Source: a virus. From it: 13,225 nt of DNA. Below, piece by piece: positions 1 to 6,618 of this stretch. Every line of letters begins with the position of its first letter. The first letter of the stretch is position 1. A program made the translations under genes and the position numbers. Under the pieces are notes generated by a model. The model was not told the origin of the DNA and did not search any database. It worked only from the letters and a program-made list of their open reading frames with translations. Location: UHGV virus genome UHGV-0112548. One strand, 5' to 3'.

Positions 1-77
1 TGCAGATCGTTCAGGCTGTAACGCCCATAAGCATCACGACGAACTTCAATACCATCAATGACCATCAGATTATTCAT
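1..77 (-). CDS. KilA-N domain-like phage protein, 5' end only (gene continues beyond window start)
   Basis: Minus-strand ATG at 77..75 preceded by AAGAGGAG Shine-Dalgarno; my translation is MNNLMVIDGIEVRRDAYGRYSLNDL.., open to the window edge. The IDG..YSLNDL pattern recalls KilA-N N-termini (from memory, not searched). Confidence 0.4.
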   Translation of the reverse strand, partial: MNNLMVIDGIEVRRDAYGRYSLNDL

Positions 78-96: not shown

Positions 97-486
97 TCAG
101 GCGGCTGCACCCGCCGTTTTCTCGTACTTACTGATAGTGATCTCGACCTTCCCTTCCGGGATAACCGGTCCCCACTCCACCAGCATTCTTTTCACCTGAC
201 TGTCGTCTTCCCACACCCCCGCGTGGGTCAGGGCGTCAAACAGCGCCTTGTTATAGTTGTCCAGATCGCGGATCCGGTTATCCGGAGGAAACAACACGAT
301 CTCCACTGAAGCAGGTGCCGACGTTGGTTTCGGCAGACGACGTAACTGCTCAACTATTGCTGCGCACGCCGCGCTCTGGAATTTTCGCCCCGCCGCGCTT
401 ATCAGGCTCTTACCAGCAAACGCCCCTTTGTTGGGGTGTCGCCAGTACGTGTTCACGCTGGGCGGAAAAGGCAGGATCAGCTTCAT
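97..486 (-). CDS. rusA: RusA-family Holliday junction resolvase
   Basis: 129-aa ORF; N-terminal LPFPPSVNTYWRH and the acidic RDLDNYNKALFDAL segment match the RusA family signature as I recall it. Start overlaps the stop of the upstream gene (483..486). Confidence 0.8.
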   Translation of the reverse strand: MKLILPFPPSVNTYWRHPNKGAFAGKSLISAAGRKFQSAACAAIVEQLRRLPKPTSAPASVEIVLFPPDNRIRDLDNYNKALFDALTHAGVWEDDSQVKRMLVEWGPVIPEGKVEITISKYEKTAGAAA

Positions 487-809
487 ACTTTCAGGCCCCT
501 CTCATGTAACCAGTGGGCTGCACGCAGCCTGGCGTTTTCCTCACCGGCAAGCAGTGAGCGGATAATCCCGACCGCCTCGCTGTCGTCGTCCTTCACCGCG
601 GTATGAAGCGTTATCCCCCGTGCCACGCCACGCTTTATCGTGATGACGCCTTTTTTCTCCAGTGCGCGAAGATGCTCCACCGCTGCATTCACTGAACGGT
701 ATCCCAGCATGGTTGCCACCTCCTGATTGGTTGGCGGGAAGCCACGTTCTTTCTGATAAGAAATCAGCATATCCAGCACCTGCTGCTGGCATTGAGTTAA
801 CGTCGTCAT
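483..809 (-). CDS. LexA-like DNA-binding-domain protein (no S24 peptidase domain)
   Basis: 108 aa; first ~70 residues (LTQCQQQVLDMLISYQKERGFPPTNQEVATMLGYRSVNAAVEHLRALEKKGVI) align with the LexA N-terminal winged helix. Protein ends after a short linker with no Ser/Lys peptidase module. 4-nt ATGA-type overlaps on both sides (806..809 and 483..486). Confidence 0.65.
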   Translation of the reverse strand: MTTLTQCQQQVLDMLISYQKERGFPPTNQEVATMLGYRSVNAAVEHLRALEKKGVITIKRGVARGITLHTAVKDDDSEAVGIIRSLLAGEENARLRAAHWLHERGLKV

Positions 810-1459
810 GCCGCCATCTCCCTGACCAGTTTTTCCGCCTGCTGGCGAACCTGCGCCAGAAAGGCCTCACCACATGCCTCAAGTTCATCGCGCCCGATGT
901 AGCTGATTGCCGGTCCCTTCCAGGTCTTGTCGAAAACAGCAATAGCACCAGCGAAGAACGCTCCTGTAGGCACCTGCTTCTCATCCTTCGGGATAAACCA
1001 GGCAGGCAGTTCAAAACCAATACGCCCGCGAATAAAAGCAATATGGTCTGCATCTTCCGGCCACCACACTTCGCTGGTGGCAGCTTTGATCAGGAAAACA
1101 TAGCGCCCGCCTTTATCACGCATGGCACTGGCATGCTTCATGATGTAACGCATGCCGGTGATGTATTGCCCCTCATGCTGACTGGCGCGGCTGTACGGGG
1201 GATTACCAAAGGCAGCACCTTTAAGCTCCGCAAGACGTTCAGACCAGTCATGCGCCAGCGCGTTGTCTTCCGCAGTGTAATAAGCGGCACATTTGGCGTT
1301 ATCACCATCAGTGAACAGATCCAGAACAAACGGGCCAAACAGGGTGTTAATTCCCCAGAAAATGTTGTCCGGCGTGCGCCACTGATCGCCCACTTCCTTC
1401 AGTTCATGGGCTGGTTTGTTCCGCAGTTCCACCAGCGCCTGGCAATATTTATTACTCAT
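806..1459 (-). CDS. phage DNA N6-adenine methyltransferase (Dam-type, NPPY motif)
   Basis: ORF contains GNPPYS (catalytic motif IV of amino-methyltransferases). Start placed at the ATG at 1459..1457, which overlaps the upstream stop as TAATG and follows a GGGGG SD; the ORF-track start at 1492 is an alternative. Confidence 0.75.
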   Translation of the reverse strand: MSNKYCQALVELRNKPAHELKEVGDQWRTPDNIFWGINTLFGPFVLDLFTDGDNAKCAAYYTAEDNALAHDWSERLAELKGAAFGNPPYSRASQHEGQYITGMRYIMKHASAMRDKGGRYVFLIKAATSEVWWPEDADHIAFIRGRIGFELPAWFIPKDEKQVPTGAFFAGAIAVFDKTWKGPAISYIGRDELEACGEAFLAQVRQQAEKLVREMAA

Positions 1460-1947
1460 TAAGCCCCCACGTAATTCCCTGACAGATACCACTCTTCACC
1501 CGATGCAGCGCGCTTGCTGCTTTTCCGTAAGCACCGCTCACGACGCGCCAGAAAATTGTTTCGTTCTGGCTGGGAGTGGCTTTCACGGAATGCCGCCATC
1601 CACACCGTTGCAGCACGACGGTATAAGCCCCTGGACTCCAGTTCTTCCGCCTGGCGGGTCAGGCACAAAATCTCCCGCGGGTCGTTAGTGCCGACATAGA
1701 AATTGCGCACAGGTCTGGTTTCACGAACTGGTTGCGGTTCCGCCTCCTGCGCTCTCTCAGTCAGACGCGGGAAATGTCTGCGTGTATCCCCTTCACAACG
1801 GTGAGCCACACGCCCACTCTGACGTAACTTGCTTGCTGACTGCAGAACGCGCTGCCGTGAGTAACCTGCAAAAGCATCCGCAATGTCTCCGGAAGTACAC
1901 CCCGGATGGGCTTCAATGAATTTCTGAACGTCATTTAACAGACTCAT
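1459..1947 (-). CDS. PerC/ANR-like regulatory protein with N-terminal winged-helix-like region
   Basis: The track ORF begins with GTG at 1953; the ATG at 1947 with a GGGGG SD 5 nt upstream is the more likely start (MSLLNDVQKF..). The C-terminal LESRGLYRRAATVWMAAF resembles the PerC/ANR helix motif (from memory). Confidence 0.45.
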   Translation of the reverse strand: MSLLNDVQKFIEAHPGCTSGDIADAFAGYSRQRVLQSASKLRQSGRVAHRCEGDTRRHFPRLTERAQEAEPQPVRETRPVRNFYVGTNDPREILCLTRQAEELESRGLYRRAATVWMAAFRESHSQPERNNFLARRERCLRKSSKRAASGEEWYLSGNYVGA

Positions 1948-1949
1948 GA

Positions 1950-2891
1950 TCACCCCCTGAATCCTGCCGGGATCTGGCTGTAGTCCACGTTGTCGTAACT
2001 GGATTTGAAGTACGGGTCTTCGCGTTTTTCGATGTACGTGCTGACGGACGGCGATAAGCGCAGGGAAAGCTCATCCCATTTTTCCCGCAGCTTCGACGGG
2101 CTGAGCACGTTACGGCACCAGAACGGATCGCGGCTGACGCGGCTGTACATCTCGCAGATTTGTTTGTGAGTACGACCATCCTGCACACACATCAGGCGAA
2201 TTTCGTTTGCCCAGGCTGTCCAGTTCGGTTCTTTGGGACGAACCACCTCGCCGTCACATTCGGCGGCCTGCTCGTACAGGGCGATGATTTTTTTCCAGAG
2301 CCACTGTGCGCAGGTCAAATCATCCTGCGTTCCCCACTGGCGCTTTTTAGGGCTGAATACAACCGCATCAGGATGGCGAGTTAAAAAATCCTGTTCATCC
2401 GTCTGCGTGTCCGGTTGCGAAGCGTCCGGACGAGAAGTTTTTTTATCTGACGGATCATGTTTTGATTTTACTGACGGATCCCCGCCAGATTCTGACGGGT
2501 GAAAACCCGCTTTTTTGCCAGATTTCGACGCATCAAATTTTGACGGGTCAGATTTTGATGCGTCAGATTTTGACGGGTCAGAATCTGACAGTTGAGAAAA
2601 TGCCGCTGCCTGAAGCTTCGCAACGTTAAGCTGATAAACATTCGACGCATTGCGGTTACCCTGGCGACGCGCCTTACGCGTTAACCAGCCTTCTGCTTCC
2701 AGCCGTGCGATAGCCGTTCTGACGGTACTCATCCCCGCGCCAATCTGGCGGGCAATGGTTTCAATTGATGGCCAGCACACACCTTCGTCATTACTGAAAT
2801 CAGCCAGGCGGGCCATAATTGCCACGCTGGATAATTTCATGCCTGATGCAGCGCAACCATCCCATACATAGCCGGTTAATTTAGTGCTCAT
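1950..2891 (-). CDS. phage replication initiator (HTH N-domain, low-complexity linker encoded by iterons, conserved C-domain)
   Basis: 313 aa; N-terminus has a helix-turn-helix-like segment (SIETIARQIGAGMSTVRTAIARLEAEGWL); the SDxSKSD linker is encoded by the tandem repeats at 2445..2591; GAGG SD before the ATG at 2891. Arrangement mirrors lambda O with ori inside the gene. Confidence 0.6.
   Translation of the reverse strand: MSTKLTGYVWDGCAASGMKLSSVAIMARLADFSNDEGVCWPSIETIARQIGAGMSTVRTAIARLEAEGWLTRKARRQGNRNASNVYQLNVAKLQAAAFSQLSDSDPSKSDASKSDPSKFDASKSGKKAGFHPSESGGDPSVKSKHDPSDKKTSRPDASQPDTQTDEQDFLTRHPDAVVFSPKKRQWGTQDDLTCAQWLWKKIIALYEQAAECDGEVVRPKEPNWTAWANEIRLMCVQDGRTHKQICEMYSRVSRDPFWCRNVLSPSKLREKWDELSLRLSPSVSTYIEKREDPYFKSSYDNVDYSQIPAGFRG
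2445..2591. repeat. iteron array (about 8 copies of a ~15-bp GATTYTGACGGRTCA-like unit) with adjacent AT-rich patch; putative origin of replication
   Basis: Read directly: units at 2445-2459, 2470-2484, 2487-2501, then four phased tandem 15-mers at 2521-2535, 2536-2550, 2551-2565, 2566-2580 and a partial unit 2581-2591. AT-rich gaagtttttttatctga at about 2433-2450. Confidence 0.6.
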
Positions 2892-2900
2892 GACCGACCT

Positions 2901-3239
2901 CTATTTCCCTGAATTTACGACGAAACTGTTCGAGCGGGCTGAAGCACTCATGCTCATAGCCTTCGCGGAGGTAGATAACCCGTTGTGTTTCCGGCTCCCA
3001 ACGAATGACTCTGACGGGCACTCCGTAGTGATCTTTGAACCAGCGGTTAACTTGTCGCAAAGGACTGTCTCCTTCTGCCGGTTGAAATCACCCACAGCCC
3101 ACTCTGCAAAGCTGTGGGTTACAATTTCCCTGTCACCTGGTACATTCACTGCATAGCAATATTCCACCTTCGCTTTTCCACCCGGTACAGGAAGCGCAAT
3201 CAGTTGCGAGCAACGGTAGTGTGTTGTTAAACTGTTCAT
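2901..3239 (-). CDS. hypothetical protein; apparent frameshift near 3060-3087 (C-terminal part continues in another frame to 2881)
   Basis: ATG at 3239 overlaps the upstream stop (ATGA). The first ~55 aa look protein-like, the frame then turns Ser-rich, while the -1 frame reads ..[42 protein letters not shown].. and stops at 2881, overlapping the initiator start. Confidence 0.4.
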
Positions 3240-3820
3240 GCGTTAGTTTCTCCACAACCAGAAGCAATCGACGCCACGACGCCCGGAGCTGCACACTCGC
3301 GGGCGTTACTCTTTTCCGGCGCACAAAAAACACGAAATAACAGTGTTAAATGCTCCTGCCACTTCGCCATTACTTGGTAGCTGTTCTCTTCGATTTGCTC
3401 ACGCTCAGCCTGGTCAATAACTCCATCAGCAGTTGCCTTGCGTAAGTACTGGGAATGCTTGCCAATCCATTCTATTGACTCCATCAGCCGCTGATTAATG
3501 TCACCATTGTCAATGTCATCAATGACCACCAGCGGCACAAACACCCCATTACTACGACGGGCTATTGCATCTGTTACATGCCTGGTACCACTGGCATCCT
3601 GTAAAACCATGGCCCACTCAAGTGGAAAAATTTGATCCCCACCGCTACGCAGTCTGTTATGCAATTGATCTTTTGCTGGGGTGATATCATCAGATTTATA
3701 CAAACCAAGAATTTCTGCTGCTTCCTCATAGCCATGAGGTAAATCAGCAATCGTTCTTCGTATTGCTGCCACCAGCCATGCTGGTTGTTTATCAACTTTC
3801 CATTCAGGTTCTTTACCCAC
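3236..3820 (-). CDS. CII-like / YdaT-like early regulatory protein
   Basis: 194-aa ORF with GTG start at 3820 and GAGGAA SD 8 nt upstream; sits directly downstream of the Cro-like gene, where lambdoid phages carry cII. Family assignment is from position and recollection only. Confidence 0.45.
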
Positions 3821-3847: not shown

Positions 3848-4045
3848 TTATGCCGCAGCACTGTTAGTCTTTTGATATAAAGACACGTCAACTTTCAGTT
3901 TCCCGTTAGTAATTTTTTCTAACTGGTACGCTCGGCCTTCAGGAATAATCTCAGGCCACTCTGAAACAGACGGATGCTTAATACCTAGGGCTTCGGCAGT
4001 TTTACAAACTCCGCCGAAATAATTAATCACGTCGGATTTCCGCAT
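3848..4045 (-). CDS. cro: Cro-like repressor (YdaS-type HTH)
   Basis: 65 aa, divergent from the CI gene; NYFGG..KTAEALGI..SVSEWPE..IP..RAYQLE..T.GKLK matches the small Cro/YdaS-type HTH pattern; GGGAG SD upstream of the ATG at 4045. Confidence 0.7.
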   Translation of the reverse strand: MRKSDVINYFGGVCKTAEALGIKHPSVSEWPEIIPEGRAYQLEKITNGKLKVDVSLYQKTNSAAA

Positions 4046-4140
4046 TTCTGTCTCCCGTTAAATTACGTTAAGCAGAAATGTAGGATATCCAACATACCAA
4101 TGTCAAGAATCCTACATGGGCATGTGGTAGGATTGCCTAC
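4046..4140. promoter_or_regulatory. divergent PR / PRM-like promoter-operator region
   Basis: On the minus strand: TTGACA (plus 4101-4106), 18-bp spacer, TACATT (plus 4077-4082) with the 18-bp operator ATGTAGGATATCCAACAT (4078-4095) over the spacer and -10. A second symmetric element AATCCTAC-N11-GTAGGATT (4108-4134) overlaps a TAGGAT -10-like hexamer 7 nt before the cI ATG, implying a leaderless cI mRNA as at lambda PRM. Confidence 0.55.
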
Positions 4141-4794
4141 ATGATGAACATGAGTGATCGTATTCGCCAAAGGCGAAAAGAACTGAACCTGACACAACAA
4201 GCACTGGCTGATTTGACTGGTGTGAACCGTGTCACGGTTACTGGATGGGAAAAGGACGACTACCAACCAAATGGAGCCAACCTTCAAGCCCTAGCCAACG
4301 CACTTAAATGCGATCCTCTGTGGCTTGTTAGCGGAAAAGGCTCGCCTGAACCAAAGATAAATCTAAAACCTGAAATATTCGCAGTTAAAAAAGTCCCCCT
4401 CATCTCGTGGGTTCAGGCGGGTTCATGGACAATGACGGAGCCTGGTGTCAGGAAAGAAGATGCTGAAGAGTGGGTTTATACTACCGCCCTTGTATCAGAA
4501 ATGGCATTTGCACTACGGGTCCGTGGTGATTCAATGACCAATCCCCTCGGCTCACCATCGATACCAGAAGGTTCTATCGTTATCGTAGAGCCAGATATTA
4601 TTGATACAGAGTGTATTAACGGAAAAATCGTTGTTGCCCATATCAATGGTGGGCAAGAAGCGACACTCAAAAAATTTGTTGAGGACTGGCCGAACAGGTA
4701 TCTCGTCCCACTAAATCCTAACTATAAAACTATTGAATGCGGTGAGAACTGCAGAATAGTTGGTCTTGTCAAACAAGTAATAATGGATTTTTGA
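4141..4794 (+). CDS. cI: CI-type prophage repressor (HTH_XRE N-domain + S24 LexA-like autopeptidase C-domain)
   Basis: 217 aa; N-terminal HTH (LNLTQQALADLTGVNRVTVTGWE), C-terminal serine motif VRGDSM and downstream lysine (ATLKKF); divergent from cro across an operator region; no SD upstream. Confidence 0.85.
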   Translation: MMNMSDRIRQRRKELNLTQQALADLTGVNRVTVTGWEKDDYQPNGANLQALANALKCDPLWLVSGKGSPEPKINLKPEIFAVKKVPLISWVQAGSWTMTEPGVRKEDAEEWVYTTALVSEMAFALRVRGDSMTNPLGSPSIPEGSIVIVEPDIIDTECINGKIVVAHINGGQEATLKKFVEDWPNRYLVPLNPNYKTIECGENCRIVGLVKQVIMDF

Positions 4795-5700: not shown

Positions 5701-6618
5701 ATGAACAATCCGTTTTTCAAAAATATGTTGGTGTATCGCATTAGTCGCGATTTCACCATCAACCAGGAAGAGCTGGAACAGCAGCTTGAACTATTTCGCT
5801 TCACTCCATGCGGTAGCCAGGATATGGCAAAAACCGGTTGGGTATCACCACTTGGTCAGCTGTCAGATCGCTTGCATCACACTGTCAATAATCAAGTGTT
5901 GTTGGTTATTCGCCGGGAAGAAAAAATACTGCCATCTCCTGTCATTGCTGAAGAACTGCGCAAGCGTGTGTCGCGTCTGGAATCCGATCAGGGGCGTCGC
6001 CTCAAAAAAACTGAGAAAGATTCGCTGCGTGATGAAGTGTTGCACTCCCTGCTTCCTCGGGCGTTCTCCAAAAACTCGACTGTTAGTTTGTGGATCAACG
6101 TCACCGACGGTCTGATCATGGTTGATGCAGCCAGCGCTAAACGTGCCGAAGACTCACTGGCCCTGCTTCGTAAAACTCTCGGTTCTCTCCCGGTGGTACC
6201 GCTGACTATGGAAACGCCGATCGAACTAACTATGACCGAATGGGTTCGTTCCGGTAGTGCGCCTGCTGGCTTTGGCCTGGGTGATGAAGCCGAACTGAAA
6301 GCTATTCTTGAAGATGGCGGTATTGGACGCTTTAAAAAACAGACTCTGGTCAGTGACGAAATTCATGTGCATCTGGAAGCTGGCAAAGTAGTTACAAAGC
6401 TGTCTATCGACTGGCAACAGCGCATTCAGTTCGTTCTTTGCGATGACGGCAGCATCAAACGCCTTAAGTTCTCTAATGAGATTACAGAACAAAACGACGA
6501 TATCGACCGTGAGGATGCGGCTCAGAGGTTCGACGCTGACTTTGTTCTGATGACCGGCGAGCTTATCTCTCTCATTAACGGATTAACAACCTCTCTCGGC
6601 GGCGAAGCCAAGCGATAA
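5701..6618 (+). CDS. rdgC: RdgC-family recombination-associated protein (prophage-borne paralogue)
   Basis: 305 aa; [62 protein letters not shown] and [14 protein letters not shown] track E. coli RdgC along its full length as I recall it. GAGGAA SD before the ATG. Confidence 0.85.

What the first reader, a model, noticed from the sequence alone, without database searches (positions are those of the whole stretch)
483..809. LexA DNA-binding-domain-only protein translationally coupled to the methyltransferase and RusA
Seen: about 70 N-terminal residues align with the LexA winged-helix DNA-binding domain, but the protein stops after a short linker and has no S24 autopeptidase module (contrast the CI gene in this window, which has GDSM and the Lys). 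Start and stop overlap neighbours by 4 nt. Established: LexA binds SOS boxes (CTGT-N8-ACAG) through this domain and is inactivated by RecA-stimulated self-cleavage. Inference: a non-cleavable LexA-DBD could occupy SOS boxes or form mixed dimers, uncoupling some promoters from the SOS signal.
Basis: partly seen in the sequence, partly recalled or inferred. Interest (0 to 1): 0.65.

Follow-up and report, generated by a model that had tools for sequence, protein, structure and literature searches.

The report
Phage LexA DNA-binding-domain-only regulator
A very common E. coli prophage gene encodes the DNA-reading head of the SOS repressor LexA without the part that lets DNA damage destroy it, so it probably acts as a damage-proof SOS-type repressor during phage growth; the gene is already annotated, but I found no test of its function.

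Summary
ORF 483..809 (-) encodes a 108-aa protein whose residues 1-65 match the whole LexA winged-helix domain (Pfam E=2.9e-19; AF2 model 1.0-1.2 A from E. coli LexA, about 51% identity). It has no S24 peptidase domain, and ATGA overlaps join it to Dam and RusA.

It is not a truncation artefact:
- All 72 distinct alleles are intact, with dN/dS 0.08.
- Relatives down to 39% identity keep the same length.
- They also keep a conserved C-terminal two-helix tail, so residues 70-108 are not a "short linker".

The gene occurs in 2233 of 5426 complete E. coli genomes, in SfV and in Stx2 phages. PGAP names it "LexA family transcriptional regulator".

Context:
- RusA lies within two genes downstream in 21 of 22 diverse loci.
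- In a distant subgroup (5 of 5 loci) the gene sits in an operon behind a canonical SOS-box promoter, once with dinI and once with a RecA-C-domain gene.
- Four of LexA's five DNA-contact residues are kept. E44 is always replaced.
- The window itself has no SOS box.

Best reading (about 0.45): a RecA-insensitive SOS-box-type repressor made from pR after induction. Mixed dimers with LexA are unlikely.

The closest characterised case is GIL01 gp6, a truncated LexA homologue that activates a late promoter. Verdict: a new variant of a known kind, moderate interest.

The parts
483..809 (-). Gene for the 108-aa LexA-DBD-only protein (phrog_362; PGAP 'LexA family transcriptional regulator')
603..809 (-). 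Codons 1-69: LexA-type winged helix-turn-helix (H6-22, H28-35, H40-52, strands 56-58 and 66-68)
   Evidence: Pfam PF01726 over its full length; AF2 model plus Foldseek to 1lea/3jso at rmsd 1.0-1.2 A; dN/dS 0.02
654..692 (-). Codons 40-52: recognition helix VNAAVEHLRALEK. It keeps N41, A42 and E45 (with S39 just before it); LexA E44 is V here.
486..602 (-). Codons 70-108: flexible linker (71-75, pLDDT below 50), then a conserved two-helix tail (H74-87, H93-102). Proposed dimerisation or partner-binding module.
   Evidence: dN/dS 0.20. The function is inferred.
806..809 (-). ATGA overlap: Dam stop codon / start codon of the LexA-like gene
483..486 (-). ATGA overlap: LexA-like stop codon / RusA start codon. 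The same overlap is seen in distant loci L082, L083 and L088.
97..486 (-). RusA Holliday-junction resolvase gene, the conserved downstream partner
   Evidence: PF05866 E=6e-15; RusA lies within two genes downstream in 21 of 22 diverse loci
806..1459 (-). Phage N6-adenine methyltransferase (Dam). The ORF extends to GTG 1492, but the ATG at 1457-1459 matches the PGAP annotation of relatives. This upstream neighbour varies in other loci.
   Evidence: PF05869 E=1e-45, TIGR01712 E=2e-76
1..77 (-). 5' end of the next gene (MNNLMVIDGIEV...). It corresponds to the KilA-N domain gene of the 98.8%-identical E. coli 40EC prophage.
4077..4106 (-). pR-like promoter (TTGACA-18-TACATT) in the cI-cro intergenic region. 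It is the only strong promoter match upstream on the gene's strand.
   Evidence: consensus scan only
4141..4794 (+). CI repressor with HTH_3 plus Peptidase_S24, the RecA-cleavable switch that gates pR

Best explanation
The gene encodes a RecA-insensitive surrogate of LexA: a gamma-proteobacterial-type LexA DNA-binding domain joined by a flexible linker to a small helical tail that replaces the S24 dimerisation and cleavage domain.

Proposed sequence of events in this prophage:
1. The gene is silent in the lysogen. It sits in the overlap-coupled early-right operon (cro ... O-like, PerC, Dam, LexA-like, RusA) behind the CI-controlled pR.
2. DNA damage makes RecA* destroy CI and host LexA. pR fires and the protein accumulates.
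3. Because it cannot be cleaved, it binds CTGT-type (SOS-box-like) operators and re-imposes repression on SOS-box promoters while RecA* is still active. Targets would be in the host, in co-resident prophages, and on phage genes that carry such boxes.

Shown: the domain content, the absence of a cleavage module, purifying selection, the operon position, and the SOS-rich genomic context of relatives.
Inferred: DNA specificity, dimerisation through the tail, and the repressive outcome.
For: - Full-length LexA wHTH at about 51% identity to E. coli LexA.
- Helix III reads S-V-N-A-A-V-E-H-L. It keeps four of the five LexA DNA-contact residues named in PMC3091678 (S39, N41, A42, E45). V at position 40 also occurs in 171-183-aa LexA-DBD-bearing hits (these are shorter than a full LexA, and their C-terminal domains were not checked).
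- No S24 domain in this protein or in any of 170 close homologues.
- The layout is DBD, disordered linker, helical module. This mirrors the LexA two-hybrid principle: the LexA DBD represses sulA only when fused to something that dimerises (PMC7595419).
- Strong purifying selection: 72 intact alleles, dN/dS 0.08.
- In the distant subgroup (L087, L090, L092, L093, L104; 5 of 5) a canonical SOS box sits at a sigma-70-like promoter heading the operon that contains the LexA-like gene. That operon starts once with dinI (PF06183 E=2.6e-25) and once with a RecA_C-only gene (PF21096 E=9e-10). This geometry resembles lexA autoregulation.
- Close relatives carry canonical SOS boxes just downstream of RusA, in front of a KilA-N/Ant-like gene, and at a late-region methyltransferase.
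- The same window encodes an RdgC homologue (PF04381 E=8e-116). From my own knowledge RdgC is a RecA-inhibitor family, which would fit a theme of damping RecA/SOS.
Against: - No binding data exist.
- LexA's E44 is replaced in every family member. E45 is lost in some distant members (P0172, P0207) that nevertheless sit behind SOS boxes, so those boxes may serve host LexA only.
- The window has no SOS box above chance: five 1-mismatch hits against 4.2 expected, and no exact hit.
- The one characterised phage truncated-LexA protein, GIL01 gp6, evolved a different operator and is an activator (PMC6182141).
- The LexA-like protein diverges faster (42-51% identity) than the adjacent RusA (65-79%) in the same loci. 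That would fit shifting DNA specificity.
Confidence: 0.45

Rival explanations
1. A gp6-like dedicated phage transcription factor. The LexA-derived domain has drifted to a phage-specific operator that is not the SOS box. It activates or represses one phage promoter, for example to time the downstream RusA, KilA-N, DUF968 and Q genes or a late function.
For: - GIL01 gp6 is a truncated LexA homologue that binds GaCACAnnTGTGaC and activates the late promoter P3 (PMC6182141).
- E44 is systematically replaced, and helix III varies among distant members.
- The protein evolves faster than neighbouring RusA.
- PHROG names the family only generically as 'transcriptional repressor'.
Against: - No recurrent alternative palindrome was found in the window, in SfV or in the 40EC prophage.
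- Helix III is much closer to true gamma-proteobacterial LexA than gp6 is. gp6 gives no BLASTP alignment to this protein.
- Late genes here already have a Q antiterminator.
Confidence: 0.25
2. A DNA-binding accessory of RusA. The wHTH protein, made in fixed ratio with RusA by translational coupling, targets or restrains the Holliday-junction resolvase, with the tail binding RusA.
For: - RusA lies within two genes downstream in 21 of 22 diverse loci, while the upstream neighbour varies.
- The ATGA overlap with RusA recurs in distant loci.
Against: - L092 has the LexA-like gene but no RusA.
- In L086, L087 and L093 other genes are inserted between the two.
- 4-nt overlaps are generic in this operon.
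- From my own knowledge, RusA works alone in vitro and in phages that lack this gene.
- No fusion of LexA_DNA_bind with RusA appeared among the hits.
Confidence: 0.1
3. A dominant-negative partner of host LexA that forms mixed dimers.
For: The only support is the homology of the DNA-binding domains.
Against: - LexA's C-terminal domain is its dimerization domain (PMC3091678). That domain is absent here.
- The tail has no detectable similarity to it.
Confidence: 0.03
4. A decaying remnant of a captured lexA gene with no function.
For: - HMMER aligns residues 88-90 (AGE) with the LexA A84-G85-E86 cleavage site. That suggests descent from a lexA cut just after that site.
Against: - 117 full-length copies, 72 distinct alleles, all intact. 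dN/dS is 0.08 overall, 0.02 in the DBD and 0.20 in the tail.
- Length and tail are conserved down to 39% identity across Escherichia, Shigella, Kosakonia, Buttiauxella and Enterobacter (genome records); source names also give Salmonella, Citrobacter and Hafnia.
- The gene is present in 41% of complete E. coli genomes.
Confidence: 0.02

Closest known systems
[quoted passage not shown]
   Same: - Encoded by a temperate phage.
- Consists of the LexA winged-helix DNA-binding domain without the S24 domain.
- Expressed from an early operon after SOS derepression.
- Interplays with host LexA control.
   Different: - gp6 is 66 aa with no C-terminal tail. This protein is 108 aa with a conserved two-helix tail.
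- The two give no BLASTP alignment, so they are independent derivations: gp6 has 44% identity to B. thuringiensis LexA, this protein about 51% to E. coli LexA.
- gp6's recognition helix changed (K38). It binds a non-LexA palindrome and activates a late promoter. Here helix III stays LexA-like, and the phage uses Q antitermination for late genes.
Host LexA repressor (E. coli; TIGR00498)
   Same: - Same DNA-binding fold.
- 4 of 5 helix-III contact residues are kept.
- The alignment runs through the linker to the A84-G85 position.
   Different: - No S24 peptidase or dimerisation domain and no Ser119/Lys156.
- The AG dipeptide is not conserved in the family.
- E44 is replaced.
- Scores below the equivalog cut-off.
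Engineered LexA-DBD fusions of the LexA bacterial two-hybrid system (Dmitrova et al. 1998, as described in PMC7595419)
   Same: The layout is LexA DBD, linker, then a heterologous interaction module. In that system, repression of an SOS-box reporter (sulA-lacZ) depends on the module dimerising.
   Different: This is a natural phage protein. Its tail is only predicted to be helical, and its self-association is untested.
Other phage-encoded SOS modulators (GIL01 gp7, Listeria AriS, prophage DinI)
   Same: They give a phage control over the amplitude or duration of the host SOS response (PMC4551915 and PMC9043618, listed; dinI heads the LexA-like operon in L092).
   Different: GIL01 gp7 acts on LexA itself, and DinI binds RecA filaments (paper titles and abstract, PHROG name); how AriS acts was not read. 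This protein would instead substitute for LexA on DNA.

Membership tests
Canonical LexA repressor (TIGR00498 equivalog) | N-terminal LexA-type winged-helix DNA-binding domain | tested here: met
   PF01726 matched over positions 1-65 of 65, E=2.9e-19. Foldseek to 1lea/3jso at rmsd 1.0-1.2 A.
Canonical LexA repressor (TIGR00498 equivalog) | C-terminal S24 serine-lysine autopeptidase and dimerisation domain | tested here: not met
   The protein ends at residue 108. There is no PF00717 hit in it or in 170 close homologues.
Canonical LexA repressor (TIGR00498 equivalog) | Conserved Ala-Gly cleavage site in the linker | tested here: not met
   A88-G89 aligns with LexA A84-G85. In relatives the pair is V-G or A-N, or ER/TR/SG/DD/AC/AE/AD in distant ones. 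The region is predicted helical.
Canonical LexA repressor (TIGR00498 equivalog) | Score at or above the curated equivalog cut-off | tested here: not met
   70.8 bits against a cut-off of 110.95. Only profile positions 1-91 of 203 align.
Canonical LexA repressor (TIGR00498 equivalog) | Binds CTGT-N8-ACAG SOS boxes | not testable with these tools
   Only indirect evidence: 4 of 5 contact residues are kept, and relatives have SOS boxes nearby.
Phage truncated LexA homologues (GIL01 gp6 type) | Phage-encoded protein consisting essentially of the LexA DBD, lacking the catalytic domain | tested here: met
   However, this protein carries an extra 38-aa tail that the 66-aa gp6 lacks.
Phage truncated LexA homologues (GIL01 gp6 type) | Detectable sequence relationship to gp6 | tested here: not met
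   BLASTP finds no alignment at E<=100. The two share only the Pfam-level fold.
Phage truncated LexA homologues (GIL01 gp6 type) | Recognises a non-LexA operator and activates a late promoter | not testable with these tools
   No candidate alternative operator was found. The function is untested.
PHROG 362 ('transcriptional repressor') | Full-length match to the family profile | tested here: met
   E=1.4e-59, residues 1-108 against profile positions 1-106 of 106.

The most novel reading that the evidence does not exclude
Lambdoid prophages in about 40% of complete E. coli genomes, including Stx2 and SfV-type phages, carry an uncleavable LexA surrogate. Once a prophage is induced, this protein switches the host SOS regulon back off despite persisting RecA*. 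That would silence SOS-box-controlled antirepressors of rival prophages, colicins, SOS-induced defences and mutagenic polymerases. It would work together with RusA, and here with an RdgC homologue, as a damage-response takeover module.
Probability: 0.3. Interest if true: 0.7.

Novelty: new variant of a known kind. Interest (0 to 1): 0.5.

Why it matters
SOS induction drives Shiga-toxin phage induction, antibiotic-triggered mutagenesis and cross-talk between prophages. This protein is expressed from the early operon of very common E. coli and Shigella prophages. If it re-represses SOS boxes independently of RecA, it would shape how long and how strongly the SOS response runs in induced cells. 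It would also affect which co-resident prophage wins. It would be a natural counterpart of the engineered fusions of the LexA DBD to a dimeriser. If it instead has its own operator, it would be a second, independent case of a phage turning LexA's head domain into a private regulator, after GIL01 gp6. Simple reporter and binding assays can separate the two.

Tried and rejected
- SOS boxes in the window: no exact CTGT-N8-ACAG, and 1-mismatch hits at chance level (5 against 4.2).
- CTGT...ACAG at other spacings (0-20) and other 4-mer palindromes with AT-rich N8 spacers, in the window, SfV and the 40EC prophage: nothing recurrent.
- The idea that A88-G89 is a retained cleavage site, which might allow cleavage in trans: rejected. 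The dipeptide is not conserved and the region is predicted helical.
- Ten literature searches for a functional study of this coliphage family: none found. It appears only in lists such as 'pham 237, LexA family transcriptional regulator, pfam01726' in Stx phages (PMC8136144). The Zhang et al. 2010 LexA-DNA structure paper is not held.
- PADLOC defence models: only a weak wHTH-level hit.
- Foldseek against PDB for the whole model: only the DBD matches, and the tail has no convincing structural relative.
- Obligate link between the late-region methyltransferase SOS box and this gene: 30 of 40 contigs carry both. The contigs are closely related, so this is not decisive.
- First genome-contig scan with alignment A3: it failed for lack of a conserved stretch. 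Alignment A4 worked.

Full report
**The feature**

The minus-strand ORF 483..809 encodes 108 aa. Pfam LexA_DNA_bind (PF01726) matches residues 1-65 to the whole 65-position profile at E=2.9e-19. NCBIfam's lexA equivalog aligns only its first 91 of 203 positions and scores 70.8 bits, below the 110.95 cut-off. phmmer against PDB sequences finds E. coli LexA at E about 1e-15. An AlphaFold2 model (mean pLDDT 80.6) superposes on LexA N-terminal-domain structures 1lea and 3jso at 1.0-1.2 A over 66-69 residues, with 50-52% identity. No S24 peptidase domain is present. The window's CI (4141..4794 +) does carry HTH_3 plus Peptidase_S24 (E=3.7e-25) and the GDSM motif.

Both 4-nt ATGA overlaps are real, at 806-809 with the Dam gene and at 483-486 with RusA. 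Residues 70-108 are not merely a short linker. After a low-confidence stretch (71-75) the model has two helices (74-87 and 93-102), and this tail is conserved in the family.

**Not a truncated copy**

- All 170 close homologues found are about 104-108 aa, apart from fragments and gene-calling fusions, and none has PF00717.
- An exhaustive HMMER search of 1.84 billion representatives found relatives at 39-52% identity (P0125, P0126, P0129, P0131, P0137, P0159, P0172, P0207, P0220). They align over the full length, including the tail.
- Among 117 full-length copies in the loci I fetched there are 72 distinct alleles, all intact. dN/dS is 0.08 overall, 0.02 in the DNA-binding domain and 0.20 in the tail.
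- The A88-G89 pair that HMMER aligns with LexA's A84-G85 cleavage site is not conserved in relatives. It is at most a trace of ancestry.

**How common and how annotated**

- The protein is identical or nearly identical in SfV (orf42), SfII, SfIV, cdtI, mEp460 and Stx2a/Stx2c-converting phages.
- The 327-nt gene occurs in 2233 of 5426 complete E. coli genomes, with up to 4 copies per genome. PGAP names it 'LexA family transcriptional regulator'.
- PHROG 362 ('transcriptional repressor') matches over the full length.
- Ten literature searches found no functional study. A Stx-phage survey lists it only as a pham with pfam01726 (PMC8136144).

**Operon position**

The window is an SfV/CPS-53-like lambdoid prophage. 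On the minus strand a pR-like promoter (4106..4077) is followed by these genes, packed or overlapping:

| Gene | Coordinates |
|---|---|
| cro | 3848-4045 |
| CII-like gene | 3236-3820 |
| DUF4222 | 2881-3060 |
| O-like replication gene | 1950-2891 |
| PerC/YfdN | 1459-1953 |
| Dam | 806-1459 |
| LexA-like gene | 483-809 |
| RusA | 97-486 |
| start of a KilA-N-type gene | 1-77 |

The consensus scan found no separate promoter for the gene. It should therefore be expressed only after CI is inactivated. This is an inference from the layout.

**Conserved context**

I examined 22 diverse loci from Logan/ENA/NCBI assemblies and GTDB species genomes; the organisms named in the genome records are Shigella, Kosakonia, Buttiauxella and Enterobacter. 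RusA lies within two genes downstream in 21 of them, often with the same 4-nt overlap. The upstream neighbour varies: Dam, Dcm-type methylases, a replication protein or a small ORF. In the same loci RusA is 65-79% identical to the window's RusA, while the LexA-like protein is only 42-51% identical.

**SOS context**

The window has no SOS box. There is no exact CTGT-N8-ACAG, and 1-mismatch hits are at chance level. Relatives are different.

- In the most distant subgroup (L087, L090, L092, L093, L104; 5 of 5) a canonical box lies at or just after a sigma-70-like -10 element, in L087 and L090 just after a terminator-like hairpin. Examples are TACTGTTTATATATACAGTG and TACTGTTTATTTATACAGTA, and L093 has tandem boxes.
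- That promoter heads an operon of phrog_1813, the LexA-like gene, phrog_1212, RusA, DUF968 and Q.
- The operon begins once with dinI (PF06183, E=2.6e-25) and once with a 95-aa RecA C-terminal-domain protein (PF21096, E=9e-10).
- Among near-identical loci, five have a canonical box about 50 nt after RusA and about 100 nt before a KilA-N/Ant-like gene.
- SfV-type genomes have a canonical box over the first codons of a late-region DNA methyltransferase. It co-occurs with the LexA-like gene in 30 of 40 contigs.
- The window itself also encodes an RdgC homologue (5701..6618, E=8e-116). From my own knowledge RdgC is a RecA-inhibitor family.

**DNA-reading residues**

LexA's contact residues are S39, N41, A42, E44 and E45 in helix III (PMC3091678). 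The window protein has S39, N41, A42, V44 and E45. V at position 40 also occurs in 171-183-aa LexA-DBD-bearing hits (these are shorter than a full LexA, and their C-terminal domains were not checked). E44 is present in nearly all hits of at least 190 aa, but it is never present in the RusA-linked short family. E45 is retained in 7 of 11 divergent members. This suggests a CTGT-like half-site, but with a systematic change whose effect is unknown.

**Mechanism**

The LexA two-hybrid system shows that the LexA DBD represses sulA only when fused to a dimerising partner (PMC7595419). The natural protein has the same layout: DBD, flexible linker, then a small conserved helical module.

My best explanation (confidence about 0.45) is a RecA-insensitive LexA surrogate. 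After induction it rebinds SOS-type operators in the host, in other prophages and on phage genes. In the distant subgroup it would also feed back on its own SOS-box promoter.

Mixed dimers with LexA are unlikely, because LexA's C-terminal domain is its dimerization domain (PMC3091678) and that domain is missing here.

**Rivals**

- A gp6-like private regulator (0.25). GIL01 gp6 is a 66-aa truncated LexA homologue that binds a different palindrome and activates a late promoter (PMC6182141). It shows no BLASTP similarity to this protein, so the two are independent truncations.
- A RusA accessory (0.1).
- A dominant-negative partner of LexA (0.03).
- A dead remnant (0.02), effectively refuted by the selection analysis.

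**Novelty**

The gene is already annotated, and phage-encoded truncated LexA homologues are a known kind. This lineage differs in four ways:
- it arose independently from a proteobacterial LexA;
- it keeps a LexA-like recognition helix;
- it adds a conserved helical tail;
- it is tied to RusA in the region between the replication genes and Q, where lambda has its nin genes.

I rate it a new variant of a known kind, with interest 0.5. Function remains untested, and simple reporter, EMSA or DAP-seq and oligomerisation assays would settle it.

Noticed in passing
window 5701-6618 (+): Full-length RdgC homologue (PF04381, E=8e-116) on the strand opposite the early-right operon, in what would be the early-left arm of the same prophage. 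From my own knowledge RdgC is a RecA-inhibitor family, so together with the LexA-like gene and RusA the phage may carry several RecA/SOS-modulating functions.
   Followed up: partly
L001 (SfV) 34172-34187; L091 24114; L090 6741; L099 6796: A canonical SOS box (TACTGTAAAAATAAACAGTG) overlaps codons 4-9 of a late-region DNA methyltransferase (SfV orf48), just before the lysis genes. It is conserved in E. coli, Kosakonia and a distant locus. 30 of 40 viral contigs with this box also carry the LexA-like gene 2.7-6.4 kb upstream.
   Followed up: partly
L007 1096-1111 (inside ORF 630..1322 -); L096 2105; 11 further loci: A near-perfect SOS box (TACTGTTTTTATATACAGTA) in L007 lies inside the ORF in the cI position, between what look like its HTH and S24 parts (the ORF was not scanned). 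The same box lies 2.9-3.7 kb upstream of the gene in L096 and 11 further loci, whose ORF context was not examined. This is not the CI of the window. Its purpose is unknown.
   Followed up: no
L067 4767-4782 (also L050, L069, L070, L077): In some near-identical relatives an SOS box (TACTGTATTTATGAACAGTG) sits about 50 nt after the RusA stop and about 100 nt upstream of a 275-aa KilA-N/Ant-like gene. This would be a LexA-controlled antirepressor-type gene next to the LexA-like/RusA pair. In the window the next gene follows RusA after only 19 nt, with no box.
   Followed up: partly
L093 4244-4597; L092 515-785: A 95-aa protein consisting of a RecA C-terminal domain (PF21096, E=9e-10) behind tandem SOS boxes, and a DinI homologue behind a single box. 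Each heads the operon that contains a distant LexA-like gene. Small conserved unknowns (phrog_1813, phrog_1212) flank the LexA-like gene in this subgroup.
   Followed up: partly
proteins P0132, P0133, P0152, P0153, P0156, P0160, P0164: Proteins of about 140-220 aa carrying two tandem LexA DNA-binding domains and apparently no peptidase domain. This may be a single-chain way of making a dimeric LexA-type binder.
   Followed up: no
window 1457-1461 and 1950-1953 (-): The PerC/Dam junction is TAATG. The true Dam start is probably the ATG at 1457-1459 rather than the GTG at 1492. The O-like/PerC junction overlaps by 4 nt. The whole run O-like, PerC, Dam, LexA-like, RusA is therefore overlap-coupled, so the overlaps are not specific to the LexA-like gene.
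   Followed up: yes
L001 34025-34160; L090 6600-6735: The roughly 130-nt region upstream of the late methyltransferase (gtgggcggctggtgggtgttgg...) is conserved between SfV and a distant locus and looks structured. It was not analysed.
   Followed up: no
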